In this document: positions 10,525 through 48,190 of the stretch, piece after piece
Position numbering within the stretch: the first letter of the stretch is position 1
How the letters are laid out: each line of letters begins with the position of its first letter
Source of the DNA: Escherichia coli
GTDB taxonomy: Bacteria; Pseudomonadota; Gammaproteobacteria; Enterobacterales; Enterobacteriaceae
Direction: 5' to 3' (one strand)
NCBI RefSeq assembly: GCF_050920415.1
Contig: NZ_CP169309.1
Length of the DNA stretch: 64,000 nt
Position numbers and translations under genes: made by a program
The notes under the pieces: generated by a model
Databases searched by the model: none
The model's input: only the letters and a program-made list of their open reading frames with translations
Told to the model about the DNA's origin: nothing

Positions 10525-11403
10525 ATGAATAAGTACACCATCAACGACATTACGCGCGCATCGGGCGGTTTTGCCATGCTGGCAGTCGATCAGCGCGAAG
10601 CCATGCGCATGATGTTTGCCGCGGCTGGCGCACCCGCTCCAGTAGTCGATAGCGTTTTAACTGATTTCAAAGTTAACGCTGCAAAGACCCTCTCGCCTTA
10701 TGCCTCGGCGATTCTGGTAGATCAACAATTCTGCTACCGCCAGGTGGTTGAGCAAAACGCGATTGCCAAAAGTTGCGCCATGATTGTCGCCGCCGATGAG
10801 TTCATCCCTGGCAACGGTATTCCGGTAGATAGCGTAGTCATTGACCGCAAAATCAACCCGCTACAAATCAAACAAGACGGCGGTAAAGCCTTAAAACTGC
10901 TGGTGCTGTGGCGTAGCGATGAAGATGCGCAGCAACGCCTGAATATGGTGAAAGAGTTCAACGAACTGTGCCATTCACACGGTCTGGTGAGCATCATTGA
11001 GCCGGTTGTTCGCCCGCCGCGTCGTGGCGATAAATTCGATCGCGAACAAGCGATCATCGATGCCGCCAAAGAACTGGGCGACAGTGGCGCTGACCTCTAC
11101 AAAGTTGAAATGCCGCTTTATGGCAAAGGTCCGCAACAAGAGCTTCTCAGTGCTTCACAACGTCTGAATGACCATATCAATATGCCGTGGGTGATCCTCT
11201 CATCCGGCGTCGACGAAAAACTGTTCCCGCGTGCCGTACGCGTGGCAATGACAGCGGGTGCATCGGGCTTCCTGGCTGGTCGTGCCGTCTGGGCATCGGT
11301 TGTCGGTTTACCGGACAACGAGCTGATGCTGCGTGACGTTTGCGCACCGAAATTACAACAACTTGGCGATATCGTCGACGAAATGATGGCTAAACGCCGT
11401 TAA
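10525..11403 (+). CDS. yihT: 6-deoxy-6-sulfofructose-1-phosphate aldolase
   Basis: 292 aa class I aldolase-like; position in cluster. Confidence 0.9.
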
Positions 11404-11418
11404 GATGAGGATACAAAA

Positions 11419-12660
11419 ATGAAATGGTTTAACACCTTAAGTCACAACCGTTGGCTGGAACAGGAAACCGATCGCATCTTTGATTTTGGTAAAAATTCCG
11501 TAGTACCGACTGGCTTTGGCTGGTTAGGCAATAAAGGGCAAATCAAAGAAGAGATGGGCACCCATCTGTGGATCACCGCCCGTATGTTGCACGTGTATTC
11601 CGTTGCTGCGGCGATGGGTCGACCTGGCGCTTACTCGTTGGTTGATCATGGTATCAAAGCCATGAACGGCGCACTGCGCGATAAAAAATATGGCGGCTGG
11701 TATGCCTGTGTCAATGACGAGGGCGTGGTGGATGCCTCCAAACAGGGCTATCAACATTTCTTTGCCCTGCTGGGTGCCGCCAGCGCGGTCACAACGGGTC
11801 ACCCGGAAGCGCGTAAGCTGCTCGATTACACCATTGAAATTATCGAGAAATACTTCTGGAGCGAAGAAGAGCAGATGTGCCTGGAATCCTGGGACGAAGC
11901 CTTCAGCAAAACCGAAGAGTACCGCGGCGGCAATGCCAATATGCACGCGGTGGAAGCTTTCTTGATTGTTTATGACGTAACGCATGACAAAAAATGGCTG
12001 GATCGCGCGATTCGCGTGGCTTCCGTCATTATCCACGATGTCGCCAGAAATAATCATTATCGCGTTAACGAGCACTTCGATACCCAGTGGAATCCGCTGC
12101 CGGATTACAACAAAGATAACCCAGCGCACCGCTTCCGCGCATTCGGAGGCACGCCGGGCCACTGGATCGAATGGGGCCGTTTAATGCTGCATATCCACGC
12201 TGCCCTGGAAGCCCGTTGCGAACAGCCTCCGGCCTGGTTGCTAGAAGATGCCAAAGGTCTGTTCAACGCCACCGTGCGCGATGCCTGGGCGCCCGATGGT
12301 GCCGACGGGATTGTTTATACCGTTGACTGGGAAGGCAAACCGGTGGTCCGCGAACGTGTGCGTTGGCCTATCGTCGAAGCGATGGGTACGGCTTACGCGC
12401 TCTACACCGTTACCGGCGATCGCCAGTACGAAACCTGGTATCAGACAAGGTGGGACTACTGCATTAAGTACCTGATGGACTACGAAAACGGTTCCTGGTG
12501 GCAGGAGCTGGATGCGGACAACAAGGTCACCACCAAAGTCTGGGACGGTAAACAGGATATTTACCACCTGCTGCATTGCCTGGTGATCCCGCGTATCCCG
12601 TTAGCACCAGGCCTGGCACCGGCTGTTGCGGCGGGTCTGCTGGACGTGAATGCCAAATAA
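11419..12660 (+). CDS. yihS: Sulfoquinovose isomerase (AGE/mannose-isomerase-like)
   Basis: 413 aa; position in cluster. Confidence 0.9.
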
Positions 12661-12778
12661 CTGACTGAAAACCCTAACCCTCTCCCCAAAGGGGAGAGGG
12701 GACCGCCCGGCGCAGTTTTTTGGTTTGACATCAGCCTCATGGGAGGCTGTATGCCGTTTTTTAATTAAGGTGCCTCGT

Positions 12779-13681
12779 ATGCAAATCACCAACATGCATT
12801 GCAGTGGACAAACCGTTTCACTTGCCGCGGGGGATTATCACGCGACTATCGTGACGGTTGGTGCTGGTCTGGCTGAATTAACTTTTCAGGGTTGTCATTT
12901 AGTCATCCCGCACAAACCCGAAGAGATGCCGCTGGCGCATCTGGGTAAAGTGCTTATTCCGTGGCCGAACCGGATCGCCAACGGCTGTTACCGCTATCAG
13001 GGACAGGAATATCAGTTACCCATTAATGAACATAGTTCAAAAGCCGCTATTCACGGGCTGCTTGCCTGGCGAGACTGGCAAATTAGCGAATTAACCGCCA
13101 CCAGCGTTACCCTGACAGCTTTTCTACCGCCCAGTTACGGCTATCCGTTTATGCTGGCTTCGCAGGTTGTTTATTCGCTCAATGCTCGCACGGGCCTTTC
13201 CGTTGAGATCGCAAGCCAGAATATTGGTACTGTGACCGCACCTTATGGTGTGGGTATTCATCCTTATTTAACCTGCAACTTAACATCTGTTGATGACTAT
13301 CTTTTCCAGCTTCCGGCAGAACAGGTTTATGCCGTCGATGAGCACGCAAATCCAACAACGCTTCACCCCGTTGATGAGCTGGATTTAAATTTCACGCAGG
13401 CGAAAAAAATAGCCGCGACAAAAATCGACCACACCTTTAAAACCGCTAATGATCTGTGGGAAATGACCATTACCCATCCACAGCAGGCGCTGTTGGTGAG
13501 TCTTTGTTCCGATCAACCCTGGGTGCAGGTTTATAGCGGCGAAAAATTACAGCGTCAGGGACTGGCAGTTGAACCTATGAGTTGCCCGCCTAACGCCTTT
13601 AATTCCGGCACCGATTTATTATTACTGGAACCAGGAAAAACGCATCGCCTGTTTTTTAATATTCACGGGCAGCACAATTAA
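12779..13681 (+). CDS. yihR: Aldose-1-epimerase family protein (sulfoquinovose mutarotase)
   Basis: ORF 12725..13681; AAGGTG RBS before ATG at 12779; start choice uncertain. Confidence 0.8.
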   Translation: MQITNMHCSGQTVSLAAGDYHATIVTVGAGLAELTFQGCHLVIPHKPEEMPLAHLGKVLIPWPNRIANGCYRYQGQEYQLPINEHSSKAAIHGLLAWRDWQISELTATSVTLTAFLPPSYGYPFMLASQVVYSLNARTGLSVEIASQNIGTVTAPYGVGIHPYLTCNLTSVDDYLFQLPAEQVYAVDEHANPTTLHPVDELDLNFTQAKKIAATKIDHTFKTANDLWEMTITHPQQALLVSLCSDQPWVQVYSGEKLQRQGLAVEPMSCPPNAFNSGTDLLLLEPGKTHRLFFNIHGQHN

Positions 13682-13741
13682 TTTCATTAAGAAAAAAACG
13701 AGATCATTGTTTAGGGTTGTATTTACACAACAGGAAATATT

Positions 13742-14617
13742 ATGGACTTTTTTACGTTATTTTCGCCAGATGGGGCCATGCTGGAAACAAACGTGGTATG
13801 TATCGTTATCGCGTTGATGTTTCTTTATACCTTTGTGGGGATATGCGCGGGATTTGGTGGCGGTTTAACCACCATGCCACTCGTCACGTTAATGCTCCCC
13901 GTAAAAATGGCAACACCACTTTCGGTAATTGTCGGCACCGCAACCGCCTTGTACGCCACCTGGCTGTCACGTAAAGAAACGGATTGGCGATCGGCAATGG
14001 TACTGATTATTTTCTCGTTTCTGGGAATACCCGTCGGTTTATATGCGCTGTCGTATTTACCCGACCATTTTATGAAAGTGGGCTTAGGCGGATTCCTTAT
14101 CCTTTACTCGTTTTACAGCATGTTTATTCCTCGCCTGCCGATTTATGACCGTAACTGGATCGCCGCACCTATCGGCGCAGTAGCTGGTGCATTAGGTGCG
14201 GCGTTCTCAACCAACGGACCGCCGATGGTTATCTACGGTATGCTGCGTAACTTAGGCCCGGCGGCATTTCGCGGCACTCTGAACGCTTTCTTCACCGCAA
14301 ACAACATCGCGGTAATCGGCGGGCTGGCGACCAGCGGAATTTTGACTGTTTCTATCTTTAAACTGGTGCTGTTTTGTATTCCCACCATGATCCTCGGTTC
14401 ACTGGTTGGACAATATGTGCATAAACGCATTTCAGTCAAAGTGTTCCGTGTGATGGTCTTTTTGTTGCTGATTGCCTCCGGTTCCATGTTGATAAAAGGT
14501 GCGTTGGGAATTCCCGCCGCTGCCGCACTTCTGCCTCCGTTTACCTTGTTAGTTATACTGCAACTGGCATTTGGTAAAAAAGTGGCGGCAATCCGCCGAG
14601 CTGAAGAAAGTAAATAA
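13742..14617 (+). CDS. TauE/SafE (TSUP, DUF81) family permease, putative sulfonate/sulfite exporter
   Basis: 291-aa highly hydrophobic ORF with AGGAAA RBS; glycine-rich TSUP-like segment GFGGGLTTMP; lies between yihR and yihQ. Confidence 0.75.
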   Translation: MDFFTLFSPDGAMLETNVVCIVIALMFLYTFVGICAGFGGGLTTMPLVTLMLPVKMATPLSVIVGTATALYATWLSRKETDWRSAMVLIIFSFLGIPVGLYALSYLPDHFMKVGLGGFLILYSFYSMFIPRLPIYDRNWIAAPIGAVAGALGAAFSTNGPPMVIYGMLRNLGPAAFRGTLNAFFTANNIAVIGGLATSGILTVSIFKLVLFCIPTMILGSLVGQYVHKRISVKVFRVMVFLLLIASGSMLIKGALGIPAAAALLPPFTLLVILQLAFGKKVAAIRRAEESK

Positions 14618-14724
14618 TCACTTGCGCGGGTTTTAATTTATACCCGCACACATTCTTTGATTAATGAAACCTGTAATAACAGGATGGCATGAAATATTAG
14701 TTTTATACTCTATGGAGATTATTT

Positions 14725-16761
14725 ATGGATACGCCACGCCCACAGTTATTAGATTTTCAATTTCATCAGAATAACGACAGTTTTACTCTACGTTTTCAAG
14801 ACCGTCTTATTTTAATCCATAGCAAAGATAATCCTTGCTTATCGATTGGCTCAGGTATAGCGGATATCGATATGTTCCGCGGTAATTTCAGCATTAAAGA
14901 TAAATTGCAGGAGAAAATTGCGCTGACCGACGCCATCGTCAGCCAGTCACCGGATGGCTGGTTAATCCATTTCAGCCGTGGTTCTGACATTAGCGCCACG
15001 CTGCGTATCTCTGCCGACGATCAGGGCCGTTTATTGCTGGAACTACAAAACGACAACCATCACCATAACCGCATCTGGCTGCGTCTTGCCGCACAACCAG
15101 AGGACCATATCTACGGCTGCGGCGAACAGTTTTCCTATTTTGATCTGCGCGGCAAACCGTTCCCGCTATGGACCAGTGAACAAGGCGTTGGTCGCAACAA
15201 ACAAACCTATGTCACCTGGCAGGCCGACTGCAAAGAGAACGCGGGCGGCGACTATTACTGGACTTTCTTCCCGCAGCCTACTTTTGTCAGCACGCAGAAG
15301 TATTACTGCCATGTCGATAACAGCTGCTATATGAACTTCGACTTCAGTGCTCCGGAATACCATGAACTGGCATTGTGGGAAGACAATGCCACCCTGCGTT
15401 TTGAATGTGCGGACACATACATCTCCCTGTTGGAAAAATTAACCGCCCTGCTGGGACGCCAGCCAGAACTGCCCGACTGGATTTATGACGGGGTAACGCT
15501 CGGTATTCAGGGCGGGACAGATGTATGCCAGAAGAAACTGGACACCATGCGTAACGCGGGCGTGAAGGTCAACGGCATCTGGGCGCAGGACTGGTCCGGG
15601 ATCCGTATGACCTCTTTTGGCAAACGTGTGATGTGGAACTGGAAGTGGAACAGTGAAAACTACCCACAGTTAGATTCCCGCATCAAGCAATGGAAAGAAG
15701 AAGGCGTGCAGTTCCTCGCCTACATCAACCCGTATGTTGCCAGCGATAAAGATCTCTGCGAAGAAGCGGCGCAACATGGCTATCTGGCAAAAGATGCCTC
15801 TGGCGGTGACTATCTGGTGGAATTTGGGGAGTTTTACGGCGGCGTTGTCGATTTGACCAATCCTGAAGCATATTCCTGGTTCAAAGAAGTCATCAAGAAA
15901 AACATGATCGAATTGGGCTGCGGCGGCTGGATGGCAGATTTTGGCGAATATTTGCCGACCGATACGTATCTGCATAACGGCGTTAGCGCCGAAATTATGC
16001 ATAACGCCTGGCCCGCACTGTGGGCGAAATGTAACTACGAAGCCCTTGAAGAAACGGGCAAGCTTGGCGAGATCCTTTTCTTTATGCGCGCCGGTTCTAC
16101 CGGTAGCCAGAAATACTCCACCATGATGTGGGCGGGCGACCAGAACGTCGACTGGAGTCTGGACGATGGCCTGGCGTCGGTTGTTCCGGCGGCGCTCTCG
16201 CTGGCGATGACCGGGCATGGCCTGCATCACAGTGACATTGGCGGTTACACCACCCTGTTTGAGATGAAGCGCAGCAAAGAGCTGCTGCTGCGCTGGTGCG
16301 ATTTCAGCGCCTTCACGCCGATGATGCGCACCCACGAAGGTAACCGTCCTGGCGACAACTGGCAGTTTGACGGCGACGCGGAAACCATCGCCCATTTTGC
16401 CCGTATGACCACCGTCTTCACCACCCTGAAACCTTACCTGAAAGAGGCCGTCGCGCTGAATGCGAAGTCCGGCCTGCCGGTTATGCGCCCGCTGTTCCTG
16501 CACTACGAAGACGACGCGCAGACCTACACCCTGAAATATCAGTACCTGTTAGGTCGCGACATTCTGGTCGCTCCGGTGCATGAACAAGGCCGCAGCGACT
16601 GGACGCTCTATCTGCCGGAGGATAACTGGGTCCACGCCTGGACAGGTGAAGCGTTCCGGGGCGGGGAAGTTACCGTTAATGCGCCCATCGGTAAACCGCC
16701 GGTCTTTTATCGCACCGACAGCGAATGGGCGGCACTGTTCGCGTCGTTAAAAAGCATCTAA
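14725..16761 (+). CDS. yihQ: Sulfoquinovosidase (GH31 alpha-glucosidase family)
   Basis: 678 aa GH31-like; position in cluster. Confidence 0.92.
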   Translation: MDTPRPQLLDFQFHQNNDSFTLRFQDRLILIHSKDNPCLSIGSGIADIDMFRGNFSIKDKLQEKIALTDAIVSQSPDGWLIHFSRGSDISATLRISADDQGRLLLELQNDNHHHNRIWLRLAAQPEDHIYGCGEQFSYFDLRGKPFPLWTSEQGVGRNKQTYVTWQADCKENAGGDYYWTFFPQPTFVSTQKYYCHVDNSCYMNFDFSAPEYHELALWEDNATLRFECADTYISLLEKLTALLGRQPELPDWIYDGVTLGIQGGTDVCQKKLDTMRNAGVKVNGIWAQDWSGIRMTSFGKRVMWNWKWNSENYPQLDSRIKQWKEEGVQFLAYINPYVASDKDLCEEAAQHGYLAKDASGGDYLVEFGEFYGGVVDLTNPEAYSWFKEVIKKNMIELGCGGWMADFGEYLPTDTYLHNGVSAEIMHNAWPALWAKCNYEALEETGKLGEILFFMRAGSTGSQKYSTMMWAGDQNVDWSLDDGLASVVPAALSLAMTGHGLHHSDIGGYTTLFEMKRSKELLLRWCDFSAFTPMMRTHEGNRPGDNWQFDGDAETIAHFARMTTVFTTLKPYLKEAVALNAKSGLPVMRPLFLHYEDDAQTYTLKYQYLLGRDILVAPVHEQGRSDWTLYLPEDNWVHAWTGEAFRGGEVTVNAPIGKPPVFYRTDSEWAALFASLKSI

Positions 16762-16806
16762 TCACGTCCGCCCGTGGGGAAACTCACGGGCAAAGGGAGA
16801 ACAACG

Positions 16807-18192
16807 ATGAGTCACATCACAACGGAAGATCCGGCTACTTTACGTCTGCCCTTTAAAGAGAAACTCTCTTACGGTATCGGCGATCTGGCCTCTAACATCC
16901 TGCTGGATATCGGCACGCTTTATCTTTTGAAGTTTTATACCGACGTTCTGGGGCTGCCCGGCACCTATGGCGGTATTATCTTTTTGATCTCGAAATTCTT
17001 TACCGCCTTTACCGACATGGGTACCGGCATCATGCTCGATTCCCGGCGTAAGATCGGTCCAAAAGGCAAATTCCGCCCTTTCATTTTTTACGCCTCATTC
17101 CCGGTCACTCTGCTGGCGATCGCCAACTTTGTCGGCACACCGTTTGATGTCACCGGTAAAACGGTGATGGCCACTATTCTGTTTATGCTTTACGGGCTGT
17201 TTTTCAGCATGATGAACTGCTCTTATGGCGCAATGGTCCCCGCTATTACCAAAAACCCCAACGAACGCGCATCACTGGCGGCATGGCGTCAGGGTGGCGC
17301 TACATTGGGCCTGCTGCTTTGTACGGTGGGATTCGTGCCGGTTATGAATCTTATCGAGGGTAATCAGCAACTTGGCTATATCTTCGCCGCCACGCTGTTT
17401 TCACTATTCGGCCTGCTGTTTATGTGGATCTGCTATTCGGGCGTGAAAGAGCGTTATGTCGAAACGCAACCTGCAAATCCGGCGCAAAAGCCAGGCTTGT
17501 TGCAATCTTTCCGTGCGATTGCCGGTAACCGCCCGCTGTTCATTTTGTGCATTGCTAACCTCTGTACCTTAGGGGCATTTAACGTCAAGCTCGCCATTCA
17601 GGTCTATTACACCCAGTACGTGCTTAACGATCCCATCCTGTTGTCATATATGGGATTTTTCAGCATGGGCTGTATTTTCATCGGCGTGTTCCTGATGCCT
17701 GGTGCAGTCAGACGTTTTGGTAAGAAGAAGGTCTATATCGGCGGCCTGCTGATTTGGGTGCTGGGCGATCTGCTCAACTATTTCTTCGGCGGCGGCTCGG
17801 TCAGTTTTGTGGCGTTCTCCTGCCTGGCATTCTTCGGCTCGGCGTTTGTTAACAGCCTGAACTGGGCGCTGGTTTCCGACACCGTCGAGTACGGCGAGTG
17901 GCGCACCGGCGTTCGTTCGGAAGGTACGGTCTACACCGGCTTCACCTTCTTTCGCAAAGTATCTCAGGCGCTGGCAGGTTTCTTCCCAGGCTGGATGCTG
18001 ACGCAAATCGGCTATGTGCCAAACGTGGCGCAGGCTGACCATACCATCGAAGGTTTACGCCAGCTGATCTTCATCTACCCAAGCGCACTGGCGGTAGTCA
18101 CCATTGTTGCGATGGGTTGCTTCTACAGTCTGAACGAGAAAATGTACGTCCGCATTGTTGAAGAAATAGAAGCCCGTAAACGCACGGCATAA
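16807..18192 (+). CDS. yihP: GPH-family sugar:cation symporter (sulfoquinovose cluster transporter)
   Basis: ORF 16774..18192, 461 aa from internal start; paralogous to the next ORF. Confidence 0.88.
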   Translation: MSHITTEDPATLRLPFKEKLSYGIGDLASNILLDIGTLYLLKFYTDVLGLPGTYGGIIFLISKFFTAFTDMGTGIMLDSRRKIGPKGKFRPFIFYASFPVTLLAIANFVGTPFDVTGKTVMATILFMLYGLFFSMMNCSYGAMVPAITKNPNERASLAAWRQGGATLGLLLCTVGFVPVMNLIEGNQQLGYIFAATLFSLFGLLFMWICYSGVKERYVETQPANPAQKPGLLQSFRAIAGNRPLFILCIANLCTLGAFNVKLAIQVYYTQYVLNDPILLSYMGFFSMGCIFIGVFLMPGAVRRFGKKKVYIGGLLIWVLGDLLNYFFGGGSVSFVAFSCLAFFGSAFVNSLNWALVSDTVEYGEWRTGVRSEGTVYTGFTFFRKVSQALAGFFPGWMLTQIGYVPNVAQADHTIEGLRQLIFIYPSALAVVTIVAMGCFYSLNEKMYVRIVEEIEARKRTA

Positions 18193-18232
18193 ATAATAAA
18201 CAACGCCCTGCGGGGCGTTATAAGGAGTGATT

Positions 18233-19636
18233 ATGTCTGACCATAATCCACTGACATTAAAACTGAATCTGCGGGAAAAAATCGCTTATGGCATGGGCGA
18301 CGTCGGTTCGAATTTAATGCTTAGCATCGGCACTCTGTATCTCCTCAAATTTTATACCGATGAATTAGGGATGCCTGCTTACTATGGCGGGATTATCTTT
18401 CTGGTGGCAAAATTCTTTACCGCGTTTACCGATATGCTCACCGGATTTTTACTCGACTCGCGGAAAAATATTGGGCCTAAAGGCAAATTTCGTCCCTTTA
18501 TTTTATATGCAGCGGTTCCGGCGGCGTTAATTGCAACGCTCCAGTTTATCGCCACCACTTTTAGTTTGCCGATTAAAACGACGATTGCCACCGCGCTGTT
18601 TATGATGTTTGGACTTTCATACAGTCTGATGAACTGCTCGTATGGCGCGATGATCCCAGCAATTACCAAAAACCCCAATGAGCGCGCGCAGCTTGCGGCT
18701 TACCGCCAGGGTGGTGCAACCATAGGGCTATTGATTTGTACCGTAGCATTTATTCCACTGCAGTCGCTTTTTTCTGACTCCACTGTCGGTTATGCCTGCG
18801 CGGCACTGATGTTCTCCATTGGTGGCTTTATTTTTATGATGCTGTGCTACAGAGGCGTCAAAGAGCATTATGTGGACACGACGCCAACCGGACATAAAGC
18901 CAGTATTCTCAAATCTTTTTGCGCGATATTTCGTAATCCGCCATTGCTGGTTTTATGCATTGCTAACCTGTGTACCCTGGCGGCATTTAATATCAAACTG
19001 GCAATTCAGGTCTATTACACCCAGTATGTGCTGAATGATATTAATTTATTGTCGTGGATGGGATTCTTCAGTATGGGATGCATCCTCATCGGCGTATTGC
19101 TGGTGCCATTAACTGTAAAATGTTTTGGTAAAAAACAGGTTTATTTAGCTGGCATGGTGCTGTGGGCGGTGGGGGATATCCTGAATTATTTCTGGGGCAG
19201 TAACTCTTTCACTTTCGTCATGTTCTCTTGTGTCGCCTTTTTTGGTACGGCCTTTGTAAACAGCCTGAACTGGGCGCTGGTACCGGATACCGTAGATTAT
19301 GGTGAATGGAAAACCGGTATTCGTGCCGAAGGTTCTGTTTATACCGGTTATACCTTCTTTCGTAAAATTTCAGCCGCACTTGCTGGCTTCTTGCCAGGCA
19401 TTATGCTGACGCAAATCGGTTATGTTCCCAACATCGCGCAAAGCGATGCAACATTACAGGGTTTGCGTCAGCTCATTTTTATTTGGCCTTGTGCGCTGGC
19501 GATAATTGCTGCATTGACGATGGGATTCTTTTACACGCTCAATGAAAAACGTTTTGCGTTAATTATTGAGGACATCAACCAACGTAAAAATAAAGAGATT
19601 GAGACAAAAGAAAAAACTGCTTCTGTAACGTTATAA
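18233..19636 (+). CDS. yihO: GPH-family sugar:cation symporter (sulfoquinovose cluster transporter)
   Basis: 467 aa, paralog of yihP with many identical blocks (e.g. NCSYGAM, PAITKNPNERA). Confidence 0.88.
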   Translation: MSDHNPLTLKLNLREKIAYGMGDVGSNLMLSIGTLYLLKFYTDELGMPAYYGGIIFLVAKFFTAFTDMLTGFLLDSRKNIGPKGKFRPFILYAAVPAALIATLQFIATTFSLPIKTTIATALFMMFGLSYSLMNCSYGAMIPAITKNPNERAQLAAYRQGGATIGLLICTVAFIPLQSLFSDSTVGYACAALMFSIGGFIFMMLCYRGVKEHYVDTTPTGHKASILKSFCAIFRNPPLLVLCIANLCTLAAFNIKLAIQVYYTQYVLNDINLLSWMGFFSMGCILIGVLLVPLTVKCFGKKQVYLAGMVLWAVGDILNYFWGSNSFTFVMFSCVAFFGTAFVNSLNWALVPDTVDYGEWKTGIRAEGSVYTGYTFFRKISAALAGFLPGIMLTQIGYVPNIAQSDATLQGLRQLIFIWPCALAIIAALTMGFFYTLNEKRFALIIEDINQRKNKEIETKEKTASVTL

Positions 19637-19703
19637 ATGTCAATAGCCGCTATTTCCATCCTGATGGGTGGCGGCCCCCCTACGTTAAAAAAATGGACTT
19701 ATT

Positions 19704-20396
19704 ATGAAAAAGATTAATGCAATAATTTTATTATCTTCTCTGACCTCTGCCTCGGTATTTGCTGGCGCATACGTCGAAAACAGGGAGGCATATAATCTCG
19801 CCTCCGATCAGGCAGAAATTATGCTACGTGTAGGTTATAACTTCGATATGGGCGCGGGTATCATGTTAACCAATACCTATAATTTTCAGAGAGAAGATGA
19901 GCTTAAACATGGCTACAATGAAATTGAAGGTTGGTATCCTTTATTCAAACCAACCGATAAATTAACCATCCAGCCCGGTGGATTAATTAATGATAAGAGC
20001 ATCGGTTCGGGTGGCGCAGTGTATCTGGACGTCAACTATAAATTTGTACCATGGTTTAATCTGACAGTGCGAAATCGCTATAACCATAATAACTATAGTT
20101 CAACAGATTTGAACGGGGAACTGGATAATAATGACACCTATGAAATTGGTACCTACTGGAATTTTAAAATTACCGAGAAATTCTCCTATACATTTGAGCC
20201 ACATTATTTCATACGCGTAAATGACTTTAATAGCAGCAATGGAAAAGATCATCATTGGGAAATCACTAATACCTTCCGTTACCGTATTAACGAAAACTGG
20301 CTCCCTTATTTCGAATTACGCTGGTTAGATCGTAATGTCGAACCGTACCACCGCGAACAAAACCAGATTCGTATCGGGACGAAGTATTTCTTCTGA
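19704..20396 (+). CDS. ompL: Outer membrane porin L
   Basis: 230 aa with N-terminal signal peptide (MKKINAIILLSSLTSASVFA) and C-terminal aromatic residue F. Confidence 0.88.
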   Translation: MKKINAIILLSSLTSASVFAGAYVENREAYNLASDQAEIMLRVGYNFDMGAGIMLTNTYNFQREDELKHGYNEIEGWYPLFKPTDKLTIQPGGLINDKSIGSGGAVYLDVNYKFVPWFNLTVRNRYNHNNYSSTDLNGELDNNDTYEIGTYWNFKITEKFSYTFEPHYFIRVNDFNSSNGKDHHWEITNTFRYRINENWLPYFELRWLDRNVEPYHREQNQIRIGTKYFF

Positions 20397-20405
20397 TGTG
20401 AAACT

Positions 20406-20481
20406 GCCGGATGCGGCGTAAACGCCTTATCCAGCCTACGGTTGATACGGTTTTCATTGGCCGGATTAAACACATCCGGCC
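20406..20481. repeat. REP element plus hairpin between ompL and yihN
   Basis: gccggatgcggcgtaaacgccttatccagcctac REP consensus; ggccggattaaacacatccggcc palindrome. Confidence 0.75.
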
Positions 20482-20486
20482 ATTAA

Positions 20487-21752
20487 TCAAGCTTCAGCCG
20501 CCAACATCTCTTTCTTACGTTGGCTAATTCGCTTAACCAGCATTACGGAAACCACCGCACCACAGAATGCGAAGCAGGCCATAATGCCAAACACGATTTT
20601 GTAGCCAATAATCCCCGGGTTTAAATCCAGAATGTAGCCATACAGACTGAAGCAGAACATCGCCGGGGCGTAACCGATAAAGCTACCCAACGCCATCGCC
20701 GCGCCTGTTTTATTTTCAGCAATTTTTGCTTCGCCGATAGGTGCAAAAAATACGGCTCGCTGTGTAAAGACTATCGCGCCAAAGCCTAATGTACAGGCCA
20801 TCCCTAAATAGACCGGCATACTTTCGTGCGGCAGCATAATCAACAGTACGAGTGCCGCAGTGCTGATGATAAAGGTGTAGCACAGGTATTTACTTGGTGA
20901 TTTCAGGATCTTATCTGAAATCATGCCACCAATAGGTCCACCGATCATTTTGAGGCAGTATTGGTTAATGATGCCATAAGCCCCCACCAGCGCAACAGGC
21001 AGCAGATAGATGTTTTTCAGGAATGGAATGAAGAATGTCAGGCCACAGTACACCGCGTAAACGAAGAAAACATTGAAAGCGATAAGCCAGATGGTTTTGT
21101 CTTTCAGCACCGAGGTCATACTGGTGTTTTGCGGTGCATCTTCATCTTTTTTCACCTCCACGGACGGTGCCTCTTCTTTGTCATTGAGTACTAAGAAAAT
21201 GATAACGCCCACGGCAATCACAATAAGGGAATAGAACCAGATACCCGCTTTAAAGCCCAACAAGCCACTGCCAAACCAGGTAAATACTGCCAACGCAGAA
21301 AATGCCACCACAGTATCGACAATTCCACGCCCTGTTTCGAAGAAGCCAAACAAACGACCTTGTTGTTCGCTATTGCCCAGTCGACTTACCGACTTGAGCA
21401 AGACAGGCCAGTTCATCATGTCGCAGGTAACGCCAAATAGCGCCCAGACAAAGAGGATGCCCCAATACCCCGGCATTGTCGTCAAATAAACACCCAGTAA
21501 TCCTGTCGCAATGAGTGAGAATGACATGGTGTATCTGCGCGGTAGTTTATCGGCAAAATAAATAGACAGAAAAAAGCCCACTGTGGTGACAAATGAGTTT
21601 ACCGACATAGCATTACCAATTTGACCATTGGTCAAATGGAAATATTCCTGCATCGGGATATAAAACGCATCTTTCAACGACGGTAATTTATAAATTGTAC
21701 CGCCACACAATGTTAATAGACTAAATAACGCCCATTTCTTTTTCGTGAGCAT
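20487..21752 (-). CDS. yihN: MFS transporter
   Basis: 421 aa, 12-TM-like hydrophobic profile. Confidence 0.88.
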   Translation of the reverse strand: MLTKKKWALFSLLTLCGGTIYKLPSLKDAFYIPMQEYFHLTNGQIGNAMSVNSFVTTVGFFLSIYFADKLPRRYTMSFSLIATGLLGVYLTTMPGYWGILFVWALFGVTCDMMNWPVLLKSVSRLGNSEQQGRLFGFFETGRGIVDTVVAFSALAVFTWFGSGLLGFKAGIWFYSLIVIAVGVIIFLVLNDKEEAPSVEVKKDEDAPQNTSMTSVLKDKTIWLIAFNVFFVYAVYCGLTFFIPFLKNIYLLPVALVGAYGIINQYCLKMIGGPIGGMISDKILKSPSKYLCYTFIISTAALVLLIMLPHESMPVYLGMACTLGFGAIVFTQRAVFFAPIGEAKIAENKTGAAMALGSFIGYAPAMFCFSLYGYILDLNPGIIGYKIVFGIMACFAFCGAVVSVMLVKRISQRKKEMLAAEA

Positions 21753-21854
21753 AACATCCCCTAAGCGATTTTGAAAATCACTGTTCTAAAGGCAATAAGA
21801 TACCGGCCATTCTTATGGAATGGTTTTTATTAACAGCGGATGAGTTAAAGCTTA

Positions 21855-22835
21855 TTAGTGGTTCAGAAGATGGCTTGCCTCTTGTTTGATTTGTTGTAGT
21901 ACGTTACGCACATGATTTATCTGATTAATTGCATCTTCTTTTTCTTTACGTAACCGCGCATCCAGTAAATGATTTTCTGGCAATGGTGTTTCACTCATCT
22001 GGCGATAAGGGATCCACGGATTATCATCTTCGTCTTCAAAGCGGAACGCCGGAGCATAATAATCAACCTCTTCTTCCAGGCCATACGCTGTCACCTGCGG
22101 TTCTTCATCGCCAAGGCAGATAAGGTGTGTTAATAACTCTTTGAATGGCATATCACCCTGACCTGAAATACAGGCTTTATGGCCCAGGCCACCTTGTTCT
22201 TTAACAATCAAGGCATCTTTGATATGCACCTGAGTAATATGTGGTGCCATCGTTTTTAAAGCGTCTATGGGATGCTCATTCGCATTGATCATATTCGCAA
22301 AATCAAACAGTAAGGAAAGTGATTTCATCTCACTGTCTTTGACCAGCGACACCAGTTCATGGCTTTTTAAATCTTCATGCTGTTCGATCGTAAAGGTCAG
22401 GCCGCTGTCCTGATACGTTTCCCGAACATAGGCAATATCGTTAGCAATGATCGATAATACGTCGCGTAAATTACCTTCATAACGCGGATAAAAACGCACG
22501 GACGATGCCCCGGTTTTCAACGCAATGGCGACGGCTTCGTCAATAGATGCCTTATCTGAGGCACTGGTTTCAATATGAATATCAAGGTTCAGACGACGAG
22601 CTTTATCACCAAAGGCAGAGAGTTCTTTATCTGCCATATTGCCCAGAGAAAAACGCTCGCCATCCAGAACATGAATTTTGACGCCTCGCAGATTATTTTC
22701 ACTTGCAATATCAAGTAAATCAGCCGGCAATACTCTTTCCAGCCGCATATTTAAATGAAAAGCGTAGGCATGCAAATAAAGAGGAAGAGTATCGACACGT
22801 TGTAGAATCTTTCTTGCGTTATTTATTGTCACCAT
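21855..22835 (-). CDS. yihM: Sugar phosphate isomerase/epimerase (xylose isomerase-like TIM barrel) family protein
   Basis: ORF 21855..22889; 326 aa from internal Met. Confidence 0.8.
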   Translation of the reverse strand: MVTINNARKILQRVDTLPLYLHAYAFHLNMRLERVLPADLLDIASENNLRGVKIHVLDGERFSLGNMADKELSAFGDKARRLNLDIHIETSASDKASIDEAVAIALKTGASSVRFYPRYEGNLRDVLSIIANDIAYVRETYQDSGLTFTIEQHEDLKSHELVSLVKDSEMKSLSLLFDFANMINANEHPIDALKTMAPHITQVHIKDALIVKEQGGLGHKACISGQGDMPFKELLTHLICLGDEEPQVTAYGLEEEVDYYAPAFRFEDEDDNPWIPYRQMSETPLPENHLLDARLRKEKEDAINQINHVRNVLQQIKQEASHLLNH

Positions 22836-22842
22836 AAAACAC

Positions 22843-23553
22843 CTACAGATTAATGATGAGATCCACGGCCTCAAATCGCCAATATTCAATATCTATCTGG
22901 ACAATATTGCCTTGCTGGTCGGCGCGATGTTTTTCAATTAAGATCGCAGGCATGCCCGCTGAACCGCCAAGAAATTTACTGATATCACCCGGCATTCTTA
23001 CGGGTTTGAAAACCAGTTTTTTTACTACCGTCTCTTTTTGGTAGCATTTTTCCCAGACTGAAGAAAATGAGTGGTTTTCAAGTTGCTCTATAAAACCTGG
23101 GGCAACTTCAGGATTAATATATGTTTCGTGATAGAAAACTTTATGTCCTTCCAGCGCCCCCCAGCCGGTAATGCGATAGAGTTCAGTTGATGGCGTCACT
23201 GCAACCAGTGGCGCGAGCGTCTCGGGAATGTCGCTGGTACGGCTTTTCTCAGTAAAGCCCCAGGAAGGTTCCCGCCCTTGCTCAATTGCGGCCCGCTGAA
23301 AGCTCGCCGACAGCTCCGGACTGTAATTAAATCGCGGCTGAGTCACGAACCACCCTTTACGATCCTTACGGAAAATTTTGGATTCTGCCTCAAGGTTCAG
23401 CAACGCCTGGCGTAACGTCATACGTTTAATGCCCAGCAACTCTCCCAGCTCTCTTTCTGAAGGGAGTTTTCCACCCGGCGTGGTGATGCCATCTTTCAAC
23501 CACCGATCCAGTTTCTCTTTTGCATTTTCTACGGTGGATTGATTCTCCGCCAT
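22843..23553 (-). CDS. yihL: GntR-family transcriptional regulator
   Basis: N-terminal HTH (LPSERELGELLGIKRMTLRQAL) GntR signature. Confidence 0.88.
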   Translation of the reverse strand: MAENQSTVENAKEKLDRWLKDGITTPGGKLPSERELGELLGIKRMTLRQALLNLEAESKIFRKDRKGWFVTQPRFNYSPELSASFQRAAIEQGREPSWGFTEKSRTSDIPETLAPLVAVTPSTELYRITGWGALEGHKVFYHETYINPEVAPGFIEQLENHSFSSVWEKCYQKETVVKKLVFKPVRMPGDISKFLGGSAGMPAILIEKHRADQQGNIVQIDIEYWRFEAVDLIINL

Positions 23554-32549: not shown

Positions 32550-32616
32550 AATGGTTCGTCTTTTAGCCGTTTTATTCAGTATAGATTTGCGGCGGAATCT
32601 AACAGAAAGCAAGCAA

Positions 32617-32860
32617 AGAAAAAAGGCGACAGATTACTCTGTCGCCTTTTTTCCTGACTCATAACCCTTAACGGGTCTTACAATCCTTGCAGGCCGCCAA
32701 CACACCCTGTTTTTCCATTAGCCGGAACAATCCGTGTTGATTCCATTTCCGTTTAATTACGTCTCCGGACGTTTGTCTTCCTGACAATCCTCTGTCTTCG
32801 CCTCCTGGCGCTCCTGACCCTCATCCTGAGTCATTGTTCCTGTTAGCGTCCTCGCTCTAT
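32617..32860 (-). ncRNA. csrC: CsrC small RNA (CsrA-sequestering)
   Basis: About 244 nt with many GGA motifs on the minus strand; 5' end ATAGAGCGAGGACGCTAACAGG and terminal hairpin GGCGACAGAGTAATCTGTCGCC + U-run match recalled CsrC; location in the engB-yihI intergenic region. Confidence 0.85.
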
Positions 32861-33886: not shown

Positions 33887-33997
33887 AATAAAAAACGCCC
33901 CAGTCATTACTGACTGGGGCGGCTAAAATATTCAGCCAAATCCGATTACGTGAAGTAAAAGGTCTGAAAGATAGAACATCTTACCTCTGTACCCTAC
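33887..33997 (-). ncRNA. spf: Spot 42 small RNA
   Basis: Minus-strand sequence GTAGGGTACAGAGGTAAGATGTTCTATCTTTCAGACC...GACTGGGGCGTTTTTTATT matches recalled Spot 42 including terminator; located downstream of polA. Confidence 0.93.
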
Positions 33998-34144
33998 GCG
34001 ACTAACTTTACTCTTTTTTGTTCAGTTCAGAAAGCATTTTTTGTAATTTTTTTTCAGTTGTTGCATAGGAATTTCTAATAGCCATCACAAAACGTGACAG
34101 CTTATGTTGCTTACTTACGAAAAAAGGGCATGTTCAGGCGAATC

Positions 34145-43092: not shown

Positions 43093-43212
43093 ATGCCTGG
43101 CAGTTCCCTACTCTCGCATGGGGAGACCCCACACTACCATCGGCGCTACGGCGTTTCACTTCTGAGTTCGGCATGGGGTCAGGTGGGACCACCGCGCTAA
43201 GGCCGCCAGGCA
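43093..43212 (-). rRNA. rrfA: 5S ribosomal RNA
   Basis: Reverse complement TGCCTGGCGGCC...GGGAACTGCCAGGCAT, 120 nt. Confidence 0.97.
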
Positions 43213-43315
43213 AATTCTGTTTCATCAGACCGCTTCTGCGTTCTGATTTAATCTGTATCAGGCTGAAAATCTTCTCTCAATCCGCCAAAACATCTTCGGC
43301 GTTGTAAGGTTAAGC

Positions 43316-46208
<2,893 letters not shown>

Positions 46209-46391
46209 TCACAACCCGAAGATGTTTCTTTCGATTCATCATCGTGTTGCGAAAATTTGAGAGACTCACGAACAACTTTCGTTGTTCAGTGTTTCAATTT
46301 TCAGCTTGATCCAGATTTTTAAAGAGCAAAACTTCGCAGTGAACCTTTGCAGGTACACTCTGAAGTATTTTTTATTTAATCACTACAGAGA

Positions 46392-46467
46392 TGGTGGAGC
46401 TATGCGGGATCGAACCGCAGACCTCCTGCGTGCAAAGCAGGCGCTCTCCCAGCTGAGCTATAGCCCC
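46392..46467 (-). tRNA. alaT: tRNA-Ala (UGC), rRNA spacer tRNA
   Basis: Reverse complement GGGGCTATAGCTCAGCTGGGAGAGCGCCTGCTTTGCACGCAGGAGGTCTGCGGTTCGATCCCGCATAGCTCCACCA. Confidence 0.97.
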
Positions 46468-46509
46468 ATAACATGTAGTTAAAACCTCTTCAAATTTGCG
46501 GTGCAAATT

Positions 46510-46585
46510 TGGTAGGCCTGAGTGGACTTGAACCACCGACCTCACCCTTATCAGGGGTGCGCTTAACCACCTGAGCTACAAGCCT
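46510..46585 (-). tRNA. ileT: tRNA-Ile (GAU), rRNA spacer tRNA
   Basis: Reverse complement AGGCTTGTAGCTCAGGTGGTTA...CCCTGATAAGGGTGAGGTCGGTGGTTCAAGTCCACTCAGGCCTACCA. Confidence 0.95.
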
Positions 46586-46653
46586 GTAGAGGTTTTACTG
46601 CTCATTTTCATCAGACAATCTGTGTGAGCACTGCAAAGCACAGTTCTTTAAGG

Positions 46654-48190
<1,537 letters not shown>

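What the first reader, a model, noticed from the sequence alone, without database searches (positions are those of the whole stretch)
13742..14617. TauE/SafE (TSUP) permease gene embedded in the sulfoquinovose (sulfo-EMP) cluster between yihR and yihQ
The cluster yihW-yihV / yihU-yihT-yihS-yihR-yihQ-yihP-yihO-ompL is intact, but an additional 291-aa hydrophobic ORF with its own RBS lies between yihR and yihQ. It has a glycine-rich TSUP-like segment (GFGGGLTTMP) and the overall look of a TauE/SafE anion exporter. To my recollection yihR and yihQ are adjacent in K-12. TauE-type proteins export sulfite or sulfonates in other organosulfonate pathways, so this may be a dedicated exporter for the pathway end product 2,3-dihydroxypropane-1-sulfonate (a role tentatively assigned to YihP in K-12) or for sulfite/sulfolactate. 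GC content looks native, so it is more likely a lineage-specific cluster variant than a recent insertion.
Basis: partly seen in the sequence, partly recalled or inferred. Interest (0 to 1): 0.6.

Follow-up and report, generated by a model that had tools for sequence, protein, structure and literature searches.

The report
Lost sulfonate exporter gene in sulfoquinovose cluster
Between yihR and yihQ this E. coli strain carries an intact, strongly conserved TauE/TSUP-family membrane permease gene that belongs to the ancestral sulfoquinovose gene cluster, has been deleted in K-12, and is most likely the exporter of the pathway's waste product, a job the textbooks give untested to YihP.

Summary
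Window 13742-14617(+) is a 291-codon ORF with an AGGA RBS, and it matches Pfam TauE (PF01925, E=4.7e-35). RefSeq already names it "sulfite exporter TauE/SafE family protein".

It is not a lineage-specific addition. Salmonella and E. whittamii have it in the same yihR|yihQ slot. Of 5,426 complete E. coli genomes, 1,287 carry it and 2,515 carry the K-12 junction, which retains a decayed leader, ATG and first codons fused to the downstream hairpin. That junction is a deletion scar.

dN/dS is 0.01-0.11, so the gene is under strong purifying selection.

Orthologues (77-87% identical) form an isolated clade; the next relatives are ≤38% identical. All 13 sampled contexts are sulfoglycolysis clusters, either sulfo-EMP or sulfo-ED. 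Each has a YihU-family reductase and none has a sulfite-releasing enzyme. Minimal clusters have one importer plus this permease and no YihP.

The best reading is a DHPS exporter. This is inferred from context and has not been tested. The kind of gene is known: TauE-type exporters occur in other sulfoglycolysis clusters. What I found undiscussed is its membership in the E. coli/Salmonella sulfo-EMP cluster, its loss in K-12, and the doubt this casts on YihP. Interest is moderate.

The parts
13742..14617 (+). TauE/TSUP-family permease gene (291 aa; RefSeq WP_000345432.1), proposed DHPS exporter of the sulfo-EMP cluster
   Evidence: ORF; Pfam PF01925 E=4.7e-35; PGAP annotation in the identical record; dN/dS 0.01-0.11; AF2 pLDDT 95.9 with 2x5 helices plus a C-terminal helix
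13682..13741 (+). 60-bp yihR-tauE leader with RBS AGGA at 13732-13735. No + strand promoter-like or terminator-like site, so co-transcription with yihR is likely
   Evidence: Sequence; scan; a decayed copy is retained in the K-12 spacer
13756..14665 (+). About 910 bp absent from K-12-type genomes, running from about codon 6 of the permease gene to about 48 bp past its stop
   Evidence: K-12 spacer 72-141 aligns to window 13683-13755 and K-12 spacer 142-198 to window 14666-14724
14618..14724 (+). tauE-yihQ spacer with two weak hairpins (GCGGGT 14626-14631 / ACCCGC 14642-14647; CCTGT 14670-14674 / ACAGG 14679-14683) and the yihQ RBS. Neither hairpin has a + strand T-tract. The last ~59 bp are conserved in K-12
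   Evidence: Sequence; blast of the K-12 spacer; scan
14498..14614 (+). Codons 253-291: clade-specific extra C-terminal helix (model helix 259-290) with the motif FGKK(V/I)AxIR, absent from other TSUP proteins (~240 aa)
   Evidence: Distant relatives align only to residues ~20-252; AF2 helix 259-290; C-termini compared
12779..13681 (+). yihR, sulfoquinovose mutarotase (upstream neighbour)
   Evidence: Annotation
14725..16761 (+). yihQ, sulfoquinovosidase (downstream neighbour)
   Evidence: Annotation
16807..19636 (+). yihP and yihO, two GPH/MFS_2 symporter paralogues 64% identical to each other. YihP is the literature's presumed DHPS exporter
   Evidence: PMC6278857
7722..12660 (.). Remainder of the sulfo-EMP cluster: csqR and yihV (- strand), yihU (SLA reductase, which forms DHPS), yihT, yihS (+ strand)
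   Evidence: Annotation

Best explanation
The ORF encodes a functional inner-membrane permease of the TSUP (TauE/SafE) family and is an original component of the enterobacterial sulfoquinovose (sulfo-EMP) operon. It is probably co-transcribed with yihR and yihQ. Its most likely job is to export 2,3-dihydroxypropane-1-sulfonate (DHPS), the dead-end anion made by YihU. The two GPH-type symporters YihO and YihP would then import sulfoquinovose and its glycosides. K-12 and about two thirds of E. coli strains with the long yih cassette have lost the gene through a deletion of about 910 bp. In those strains export must be done by something else, either YihP as the literature assumes or an unrelated carrier. 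SHOWN: family membership, intactness, purifying selection, ancestral position, the deletion scar, and exclusive association with sulfoglycolysis clusters. INFERRED: the substrate (DHPS), the direction of transport (export), and co-transcription.
For: Family: Pfam TauE E=4.7e-35. The AF2 model (pLDDT 95.9) shows two repeats of long-short-long-long-long helices, with the conserved GFG (37-39) and GPP (159-161) motifs at the helix breaks. Function retained: dN/dS 0.01-0.11, and 1,287 of the 1,296 E. coli genomes that match the gene cover >=80% of it. Ancestral: same yihR|yihQ slot in Salmonella (87% aa identity) and E. whittamii. Allele divergence is similar to that of the flanking genes. The K-12 junction is uniform, >=99% identical in 2,361 of 2,515 genomes. 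It retains a decayed leader, ATG and codons 1-5 (local score 17-21 vs 12+-1.7 for shuffles; 0-2/500 reach it), fused to the 3' hairpin. Pathway link: 13 of 13 sampled orthologue contexts are sulfoglycolysis clusters. These are sulfo-EMP in Escherichia, Salmonella, RIT691 and Klebsiella, and sulfo-ED in Hafnia, Leminorella, Edwardsiella, Vibrio, Kluyvera, Enterobacter, Pantoea and Morganella. The ED identity is confirmed because the SDR's best solved relative is sulfoquinovose 1-dehydrogenase, E=5e-96. Substrate: every cluster has a beta-hydroxyacid-dehydrogenase-family reductase (YihU itself or a 30%-identical relative), and none has an aldehyde dehydrogenase or a desulfonating enzyme. Exporter role by elimination: the ED clusters encode only an SSF importer plus this permease. 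The Klebsiella quasipneumoniae EMP cluster encodes only a YihO-like MFS (74% vs 68% to YihP) plus this permease. YihP's exporter role is only 'most likely' in the literature, and a yihP mutant is not among those reported to fail on SQ (PMC6278857). TauE-type proteins are the predicted SL/DHPS/isethionate exporters in the sulfo-TAL and sulfo-TK clusters (PMC7491151; PMC12890257).
Against: There is no transport, expression or mutant data for this protein or any close orthologue. K-12 grows on SQ and excretes DHPS without it (PMC6278857), so it is dispensable in E. coli. The TSUP family contains proposed importers as well as exporters (PMC8873060 text), so family membership does not fix the direction. 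The reductase in the ED clusters is only 27-31% identical to YihU, and its closest solved relative is tartronate semialdehyde reductase, so DHPS formation there is itself inferred. The 13 contexts were chosen from named hits and are not a random sample. No NCBIfam equivalog model and no solved structure exist for this clade.
Confidence: 0.6

Rival explanations
1. It is a safety-valve exporter for another sulfonated or sulfur anion, such as sulfolactaldehyde, sulfolactate, or sulfite as its database name says, rather than for DHPS. YihP would then remain the DHPS exporter.
For: PGAP and Pfam name the family 'sulfite exporter'. TauE of Cupriavidus necator is proposed to export sulfolactate. E. 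coli and Salmonella keep both YihP and this gene, which could mean the two have different substrates.
Against: No sulfite-releasing enzyme and no SLA dehydrogenase is encoded in any of the 13 clusters. Sulfo-EMP does not desulfonate (PMC12608037). The ED and Klebsiella clusters have no YihP, yet still need a product exporter.
Confidence: 0.17
2. It is an importer of a sulfonated substrate, for example a second uptake route for sulfoquinovose, an SQ derivative or another sulfonate, acting like the TSUP uptake member TsaS.
For: The family is named after a 4-toluene sulfonate uptake permease, so direction is not fixed by family.
Against: Every cluster already has a dedicated sugar symporter (YihO/YihP or SSF). 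Without this protein the minimal clusters would have no exporter at all. Growth of K-12 on SQ depends on yihO.
Confidence: 0.1
3. It is a dispensable passenger on its way to loss in Escherichia, with no current role in sulfoglycolysis.
For: It is lost in 2,515 of 5,426 E. coli genomes without loss of the rest of the cluster, and K-12 grows on SQ.
Against: dN/dS is 0.01-0.11 over dS up to 0.23. Identity is 77-87% from E. coli to Vibrio. It is retained in two unrelated pathway architectures and in two different slots of the EMP cluster.
Confidence: 0.05

Closest known systems
TauE (Cupriavidus necator H16) and SafE: founding members of the TSUP family (Pfam PF01925; TC 2.A.102 from my own knowledge)
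   Same: Same Pfam family across the full domain. Glycine-rich helix-break motifs and a two-fold internal repeat. Genetic linkage to an organosulfonate pathway.
   Different: At most ~38% identity to any TSUP outside its own clade. An extra C-terminal helix (259-290) is shared only within the clade. It is linked to non-desulfonating sulfoglycolysis, so sulfite is not an expected substrate.
SftE (sulfo-TAL clusters of Bacillus, Clostridium, Eubacterium) and SqwE (sulfo-TK): TauE-type predicted exporters of SL/DHPS/isethionate
   Same: A TauE-type permease encoded inside a sulfoquinovose catabolic cluster and assigned, by context only, to export the C2/C3 sulfonate end product (PMC7491151; PMC12890257).
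   Different: Different pathways and phyla. Sequence relatedness to this clade was not measured here. Those proteins are part of the published pathway models, whereas this gene is missing from the published E. coli sulfo-EMP model (ompL-yihOPQRSTUVW; PMC12608037).
YihP (GPH/MFS_2 symporter), the presumed DHPS exporter of E. coli K-12
   Same: Encoded in the same operon and proposed for the same physiological role.
   Different: Unrelated fold and family. YihP is 64% identical to the SQ importer YihO. It is absent from the Klebsiella EMP cluster and from all ED clusters that carry the TauE orthologue. Its exporter role is untested in the papers read.
TauE-like sulfolactate exporter of the Pseudomonas putida SQ1 sulfo-ED cluster (from my own knowledge of Felux et al. 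2015; the paper could not be read)
   Same: A TSUP gene as the transport partner of a sulfo-ED cluster, like the Hafnia, Leminorella and Vibrio orthologues seen here.
   Different: The P. putida cluster oxidises SLA to sulfolactate with an aldehyde dehydrogenase. The enterobacterial and Vibrio clusters here carry a reductase instead, which predicts DHPS.

Membership tests
TSUP / TauE-SafE permeases (Pfam PF01925) | Significant full-length match to the family profile | tested here: met
   PF01925 i-E=4.7e-35, model positions 2-235 of 237, residues 23-248. 5,632 relatives at E<=1e-3 in the representative library.
TSUP / TauE-SafE permeases (Pfam PF01925) | Polytopic membrane protein of about 8 TMS built from an internal 4+4 duplication | tested here: met
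   The AF2 model (pLDDT 95.9, pTM 0.91) has helices 16-36/40-49/54-75/82-105/108-128 repeated as 138-155/159-168/173-198/203-227/232-255, plus one extra helix at 259-290. Hydropathy shows 8-9 segments. The sequence-level repeat test by hhalign was inconclusive (E=0.035 over 37 columns, in register).
TSUP / TauE-SafE permeases (Pfam PF01925) | Conserved Gly/Pro-rich motifs in the first helix of each repeat | tested here: met
   G37, F38 and G99 are invariant. G39, P46, G159, P160 and P161 are >=90% conserved across 91 sequences at 26-87% identity.
TSUP / TauE-SafE permeases (Pfam PF01925) | Similarity to an experimentally solved family member | not testable with these tools
   No PDB sequence hit at E<=1. 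The best Foldseek matches are non-family proteins with E>=8e-3 (CMP-sialic acid transporter, BacA/UppP with TM 0.43-0.52).
Sulfite exporter in the strict sense (TauE of taurine/sulfoacetate desulfonation clusters) | Encoded with a sulfite-releasing desulfonating enzyme | tested here: not met
   None of the 13 clusters examined encodes a sulfo-lyase, Xsc-type enzyme or any other desulfonating enzyme.
End-product (C3-sulfonate) exporter of a sulfoglycolysis cluster | Encoded within, and on the same strand as, a sulfoquinovose catabolic operon across taxa | tested here: met
   13 of 13 contexts, spanning two pathway types and three gene-order positions.
End-product (C3-sulfonate) exporter of a sulfoglycolysis cluster | Induced by sulfoquinovose / co-transcribed with the pathway genes | not testable with these tools
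   Only indirect evidence: a 60-bp leader with no promoter-like or terminator-like site on the + strand. The published RNA-seq used K-12 and Nissle, which both lack the gene.
End-product (C3-sulfonate) exporter of a sulfoglycolysis cluster | Demonstrated efflux of DHPS or sulfolactate | not testable with these tools
   Requires a mutant or a proteoliposome assay.

The most novel reading that the evidence does not exclude
This TSUP permease is the real, ancestral DHPS exporter of enterobacterial sulfoglycolysis, and YihP is a second importer, for example for sulfoquinovosyl glycerol. The textbook assignment 'YihP = DHPS exporter' would then be an artefact of the pathway having been worked out in K-12, a strain that had deleted the true exporter gene. 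The tight clade with its extra C-terminal helix would be the first TSUP subfamily with a defined physiological substrate.
Probability: 0.4. Interest if true: 0.5.

Novelty: new member of a known kind. Interest (0 to 1): 0.4.

Why it matters
Sulfoquinovose breakdown by gut Enterobacteriaceae feeds DHPS to sulfite-respiring bacteria that make H2S, so how DHPS leaves the cell matters for that cross-feeding. The E. coli pathway model comes from K-12 and lists ten genes, with YihP as the exporter by elimination. This analysis shows that the ancestral cluster has an eleventh gene, a TauE-type permease that is strongly conserved and always linked to sulfoglycolysis, and that K-12 is a deletion variant. 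The result is a cheap, direct experiment (tauE and yihP knockouts in a carrier strain, and adding tauE back to K-12). It could reassign two transporters and explain the slow growth of K-12 on sulfoquinovose. It would also give the poorly characterised TSUP family a defined substrate. The kind of gene, a TauE-type exporter in a sulfoglycolysis cluster, is already familiar, and RefSeq already names this one. It is a correction to a model and does not reveal a new mechanism.

Tried and rejected
- NCBIfam gave no family at E<=0.01.
- A PDB sequence search found nothing. A Foldseek search of the PDB gave only weak, non-family matches, so no structural homologue helps to infer substrate or direction.
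- hhalign of the N-terminal half against the C-terminal half was inconclusive. I relied on the helix pattern of the AF2 model for the internal repeat.
I made up for this with 7 encoding-contig look-ups.
- The promoter/terminator scan found no + strand signal near the gene. I did not search for CsqR operators because I had no verified motif.
- I first read the 5' 70 bp of the K-12 spacer as the leader remnant, but its similarity is weak (z=2-2.9). The significant remnant is the central segment. A tandem duplication of the leader in K-12 is not supported (segment A vs B: 852/2000 shuffles reach the score).
- I considered recent import of the window's allele from E. whittamii, prompted by the 100% protein match. 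I rejected it: DNA identity to E. whittamii is only 92-96%, and other E. coli alleles are equally close at the protein level.
- Plasmid carriage is rejected. There are no plasmid copies in E. coli genomes, and the two hits in the plasmid collection are a 4.9-Mb record and a non-mobilizable 194-kb Salmonella record.
- Denger et al. 2014 and Felux et al. 2015 could not be read, so I cannot exclude that their supplementary figures show this gene.

Full report
OBSERVATION. Window 13742-14617 (+) is an ATG-to-TAA ORF of 291 codons. AGGA lies 6 nt upstream of the ATG, and the motif GFGGGLTTMP is at residues 37-46. The window is E. coli chromosome: a 2.5-kb query is 100% identical to strain MFDS1022581 (NZ_CP169399). 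In that record PGAP annotates csqR and yihV on the - strand, then yihU, yihT, yihS, yihR, a 'sulfite exporter TauE/SafE family protein' (WP_000345432.1), yihQ, yihP, yihO and ompL. In a K-12 derivative (C600) yihR and yihQ are adjacent, separated by 198 bp. The gene is, however, already named in RefSeq.

FAMILY. Pfam TauE (PF01925) matches residues 23-248 at E=4.7e-35, covering the whole model. NCBIfam has no model for it, and no PDB chain matches by sequence. An AlphaFold2 model built on a 91-sequence alignment is very confident (pLDDT 95.9, pTM 0.91). It has two repeats of a long-short-long-long-long helix pattern (16-128 and 138-255). The family's most conserved residues sit at the helix breaks (G37-F38-G39, P46; G159-P160-P161). 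There is also one further helix at 259-290. Foldseek against the PDB found nothing significant; the best matches were a nucleotide-sugar transporter and BacA/UppP, with TM 0.34-0.52. A sequence-level test of the internal duplication was inconclusive.

IT IS A WORKING GENE. Among E. coli, E. whittamii and Salmonella alleles there are no stop codons. dN/dS is 0.008-0.107 while dS reaches 0.10-0.23 within Escherichia. Synonymous sites are saturated against Salmonella, yet the proteins are 87% identical.

DISTRIBUTION IN E. COLI. Of 5,426 complete genomes, 1,296 contain the gene and 1,287 cover >=80% of it. It is always chromosomal and always annotated as TauE/SafE, and carriers include O157:H7. 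The K-12-type yihR-yihQ junction is found in 2,515 genomes, and in 2,361 of them it is >=99% identical. Most of the remaining genomes (ST131, APEC, O18:H1 and others) carry a different, inverted cassette at the same locus. This is the 'short yih cassette' described by Kaznadzey et al. 2025 (PMC12608037). That paper defines the long form as ompL-yihOPQRSTUVW and never mentions a TauE gene. Other sulfoglycolysis papers and reviews I searched likewise discuss TauE only for other organisms, and assign DHPS export in E. coli to YihP as 'most likely'.

POLARITY: K-12 IS THE DELETION.
- Salmonella enterica has the orthologue (87% identical) in the same yihR|yihQ slot of a syntenic cluster, and so does Escherichia whittamii.
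- The divergence of the gene between strains resembles that of the flanking yih genes. The whole cluster is a recombination mosaic with 80-100% identity in 250-bp windows.
- The K-12 junction is much more uniform than the gene-bearing alleles.
- The K-12 spacer is a scar. Its positions 72-141 align to the leader, ATG and first five codons of the permease gene (K-12 ...CAGTTTTATGAGAATCATTTTAC against ...AAATATTATGGACTTTTTTAC). The local score is 17-21 against 12+-1.7 for shuffles, and 0-2 of 500 shuffles reach it. Positions 142-198 align to the last 59 bp before yihQ, including the CCTGTAATAACAGG hairpin.
- Relative to the window, about 910 bp (13756-14665) are missing. The first ~70 bp of the K-12 spacer have no clear origin.

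WHAT TRAVELS WITH IT. A search of 1.84 billion cluster representatives shows that the orthologues collapse into one 50%-identity cluster. The next full-length relatives are only 29-38% identical, about 240 aa long, and align to residues ~20-252. So this is an isolated clade with a private C-terminal helix, and every member has the motif FGKK(V/I)AxIR. I examined 13 independent genomic contexts.
- Sulfo-EMP clusters, yihR|yihQ slot: E. coli, E. whittamii and Salmonella.
- Sulfo-EMP clusters, gene directly after yihQ: Enterobacteriaceae RIT691 and Klebsiella quasipneumoniae.
- Last gene of a cluster LacI / SSF transporter // dehydratase, HpcH aldolase, mutarotase, SGL lactonase, NAD_binding_2 reductase, SDR, TauE: Hafnia, Leminorella, Edwardsiella, Vibrio owensii, Kluyvera, Enterobacter kobei, Pantoea and Morganella.

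The latter group are sulfo-ED clusters. The SDR's best solved relative is 'sulfoquinovose 1-dehydrogenase' (9gwu, E=5e-96; the next hit is 1e-58). Such clusters have been reported in Hafnia, Leminorella and Vibrio (PMC7491151). Their reductase belongs to the YihU family (6sm7, E=8e-32), although tartronate semialdehyde reductase scores higher. None of these clusters encodes an aldehyde dehydrogenase or a desulfonating enzyme.

MECHANISM PROPOSED. Both pathway types end in sulfolactaldehyde and, given the reductase, in DHPS. The cell cannot use DHPS and must expel it. In the ED clusters the only transporters are an SSF-type importer and this permease. In Klebsiella the only transporters are one YihO-like MFS (74% to YihO, 68% to YihP) and this permease. 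By elimination the permease is the product exporter. YihO and YihP are 64%-identical glycoside-type symporters. yihO is required for growth on SQ, while no yihP phenotype is reported in the text I could read. I therefore propose that the permease exports DHPS, is co-transcribed within yihUTSR-tauE-QPO-ompL (there are no + strand signals in the 60-bp leader), and was lost in the K-12 lineage, where another carrier substitutes. The substrate, the direction of transport and the transcription pattern are inferences. The rival readings (another sulfonate or sulfite, import, or a dispensable passenger) are weighed in the Rival explanations section.

COMPARISON AND NOVELTY. TauE-type permeases are already the predicted exporters in the sulfo-TAL (SftE), sulfo-TK (SqwE), Arthrobacter sulfo-EMP and (from memory) P. 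putida sulfo-ED clusters. So this is a new member of a known kind. What appears undiscussed in the literature I could search is that the E. coli/Salmonella sulfo-EMP cluster ancestrally has this eleventh gene, that K-12 bears its deletion scar, and that this weakens the YihP assignment. I could not read Denger 2014 or Felux 2015.

VERDICT. The function is plausible but untested. Interest is moderate (0.4).

Noticed in passing
window ~7700-20400 (whole yih locus); L015 (E. coli ST131) 5065-13623: About a quarter of complete E. coli genomes (ST131, APEC O2-211, O18:H1, HUSEC2011 and others) carry an inverted, different cassette at this locus in place of the sulfo-EMP cluster. It contains an epimerase, 2 MFS transporters, a Zn-ADH, an aldolase (66% to YihT), a YihU-like reductase (72%), a kinase (66%) and a DeoR regulator (71%). 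It has no yihS, yihQ, ompL or TauE. This is the 'short yih cassette' already published (PMC12608037), although that paper lists only yihTUVW and not the Zn-ADH, MFS or epimerase genes.
   Followed up: partly
L013 (E. coli O157:H7 ECP19-798) 4916-5812: In this O157:H7 genome yihU (SLA reductase) is annotated as a pseudogene with an internal stop, while the TauE gene and the rest of the cluster are intact. I did not check whether this is general in O157:H7.
   Followed up: no
window ~8500-23500: The whole yih region of this strain is only 88-98% identical (mostly 92-97%, per 500-bp window) to K-12, O157, MRE162 and Z0117, and to E. whittamii, whereas the flank at 5500-8000 is 96-99% identical to the E. 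coli strains. Only 1-2 of 5,426 genomes are >=99% identical. dS between E. coli TauE alleles reaches 0.18. This points to deep, mosaic haplotypes at the locus.
   Followed up: partly
window ~12660-12780 (yihS-yihR spacer): This spacer contains a variable element of about 77-100 bp that is missing or divergent in other strains. A 98-bp copy matches elsewhere in another E. coli genome, under a 'hypothetical protein' annotation (H30, 35). It is probably a REP-type repeat.
   Followed up: no
window ~20000-20500 (3' part of ompL); L013 15250-15500: This part of the ompL porin gene is far more divergent between E. coli strains (81-86% identity) than the rest of the cluster. It may be surface-loop diversification.
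   Followed up: no
L017 (Enterobacter kobei) 95-18876: A sulfo-ED cluster that ends in TauE lies next to a sulfo-EMP cluster (csqR, yihV / yihU, T, S, Q, MFS) that lacks both yihR and TauE. The two are separated only by T6SS Hcp/Tlde1 genes. So there are two sulfoglycolysis pathways with a single TauE and a single mutarotase.
   Followed up: partly
L016 (Kluyvera ascorbata) 68-13557: The sulfo-ED + TauE cluster lies directly beside typA-glnA, the same chromosomal site that holds the yih cluster in E. coli and Salmonella. The site looks like a shared integration or replacement hotspot for sulfoglycolysis cassettes.
   Followed up: no
L019 (Pantoea) 10116-18882; L020 (Morganella) 14682-17489: In Pantoea the sulfo-ED + TauE cluster is followed by an OmpL-like porin (88% to E. 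coli OmpL), then AlpA and conjugative T4SS genes. In Morganella an integrase and a transposase lie nearby. This suggests the cassette moves on integrative elements, which would fit 77-87% TauE identity from Vibrio to Escherichia.
   Followed up: no
L005/L006 (Hafnia) 1-18888: The Hafnia sulfo-ED cluster has no GH31 sulfoquinovosidase within 9 kb on either side. This is at odds with the published remark that every SQ cluster examined co-encodes one (PMC7491151).
   Followed up: no
L002 (K-12 C600) 9979-10048: The first ~70 bp of the K-12 yihR-yihQ spacer have no clear counterpart in gene-bearing alleles. They contain an unannotated 14-codon ORF (ATGTATCTTCAATTTATTAAG...TAA) behind an AAAGG motif. 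The last codons of K-12 yihR also differ from those of the gene-bearing alleles.
   Followed up: partly
window 23717-57517: Rfam finds only ordinary E. coli features elsewhere in the window: an rrn operon (43095-48190), CsrC (32607-32860), Spot 42 (33889-34007), ES222, STnc370 and naRNA4 repeats. There are no RNA family hits in or near the yihR-yihQ interval.
   Followed up: yes
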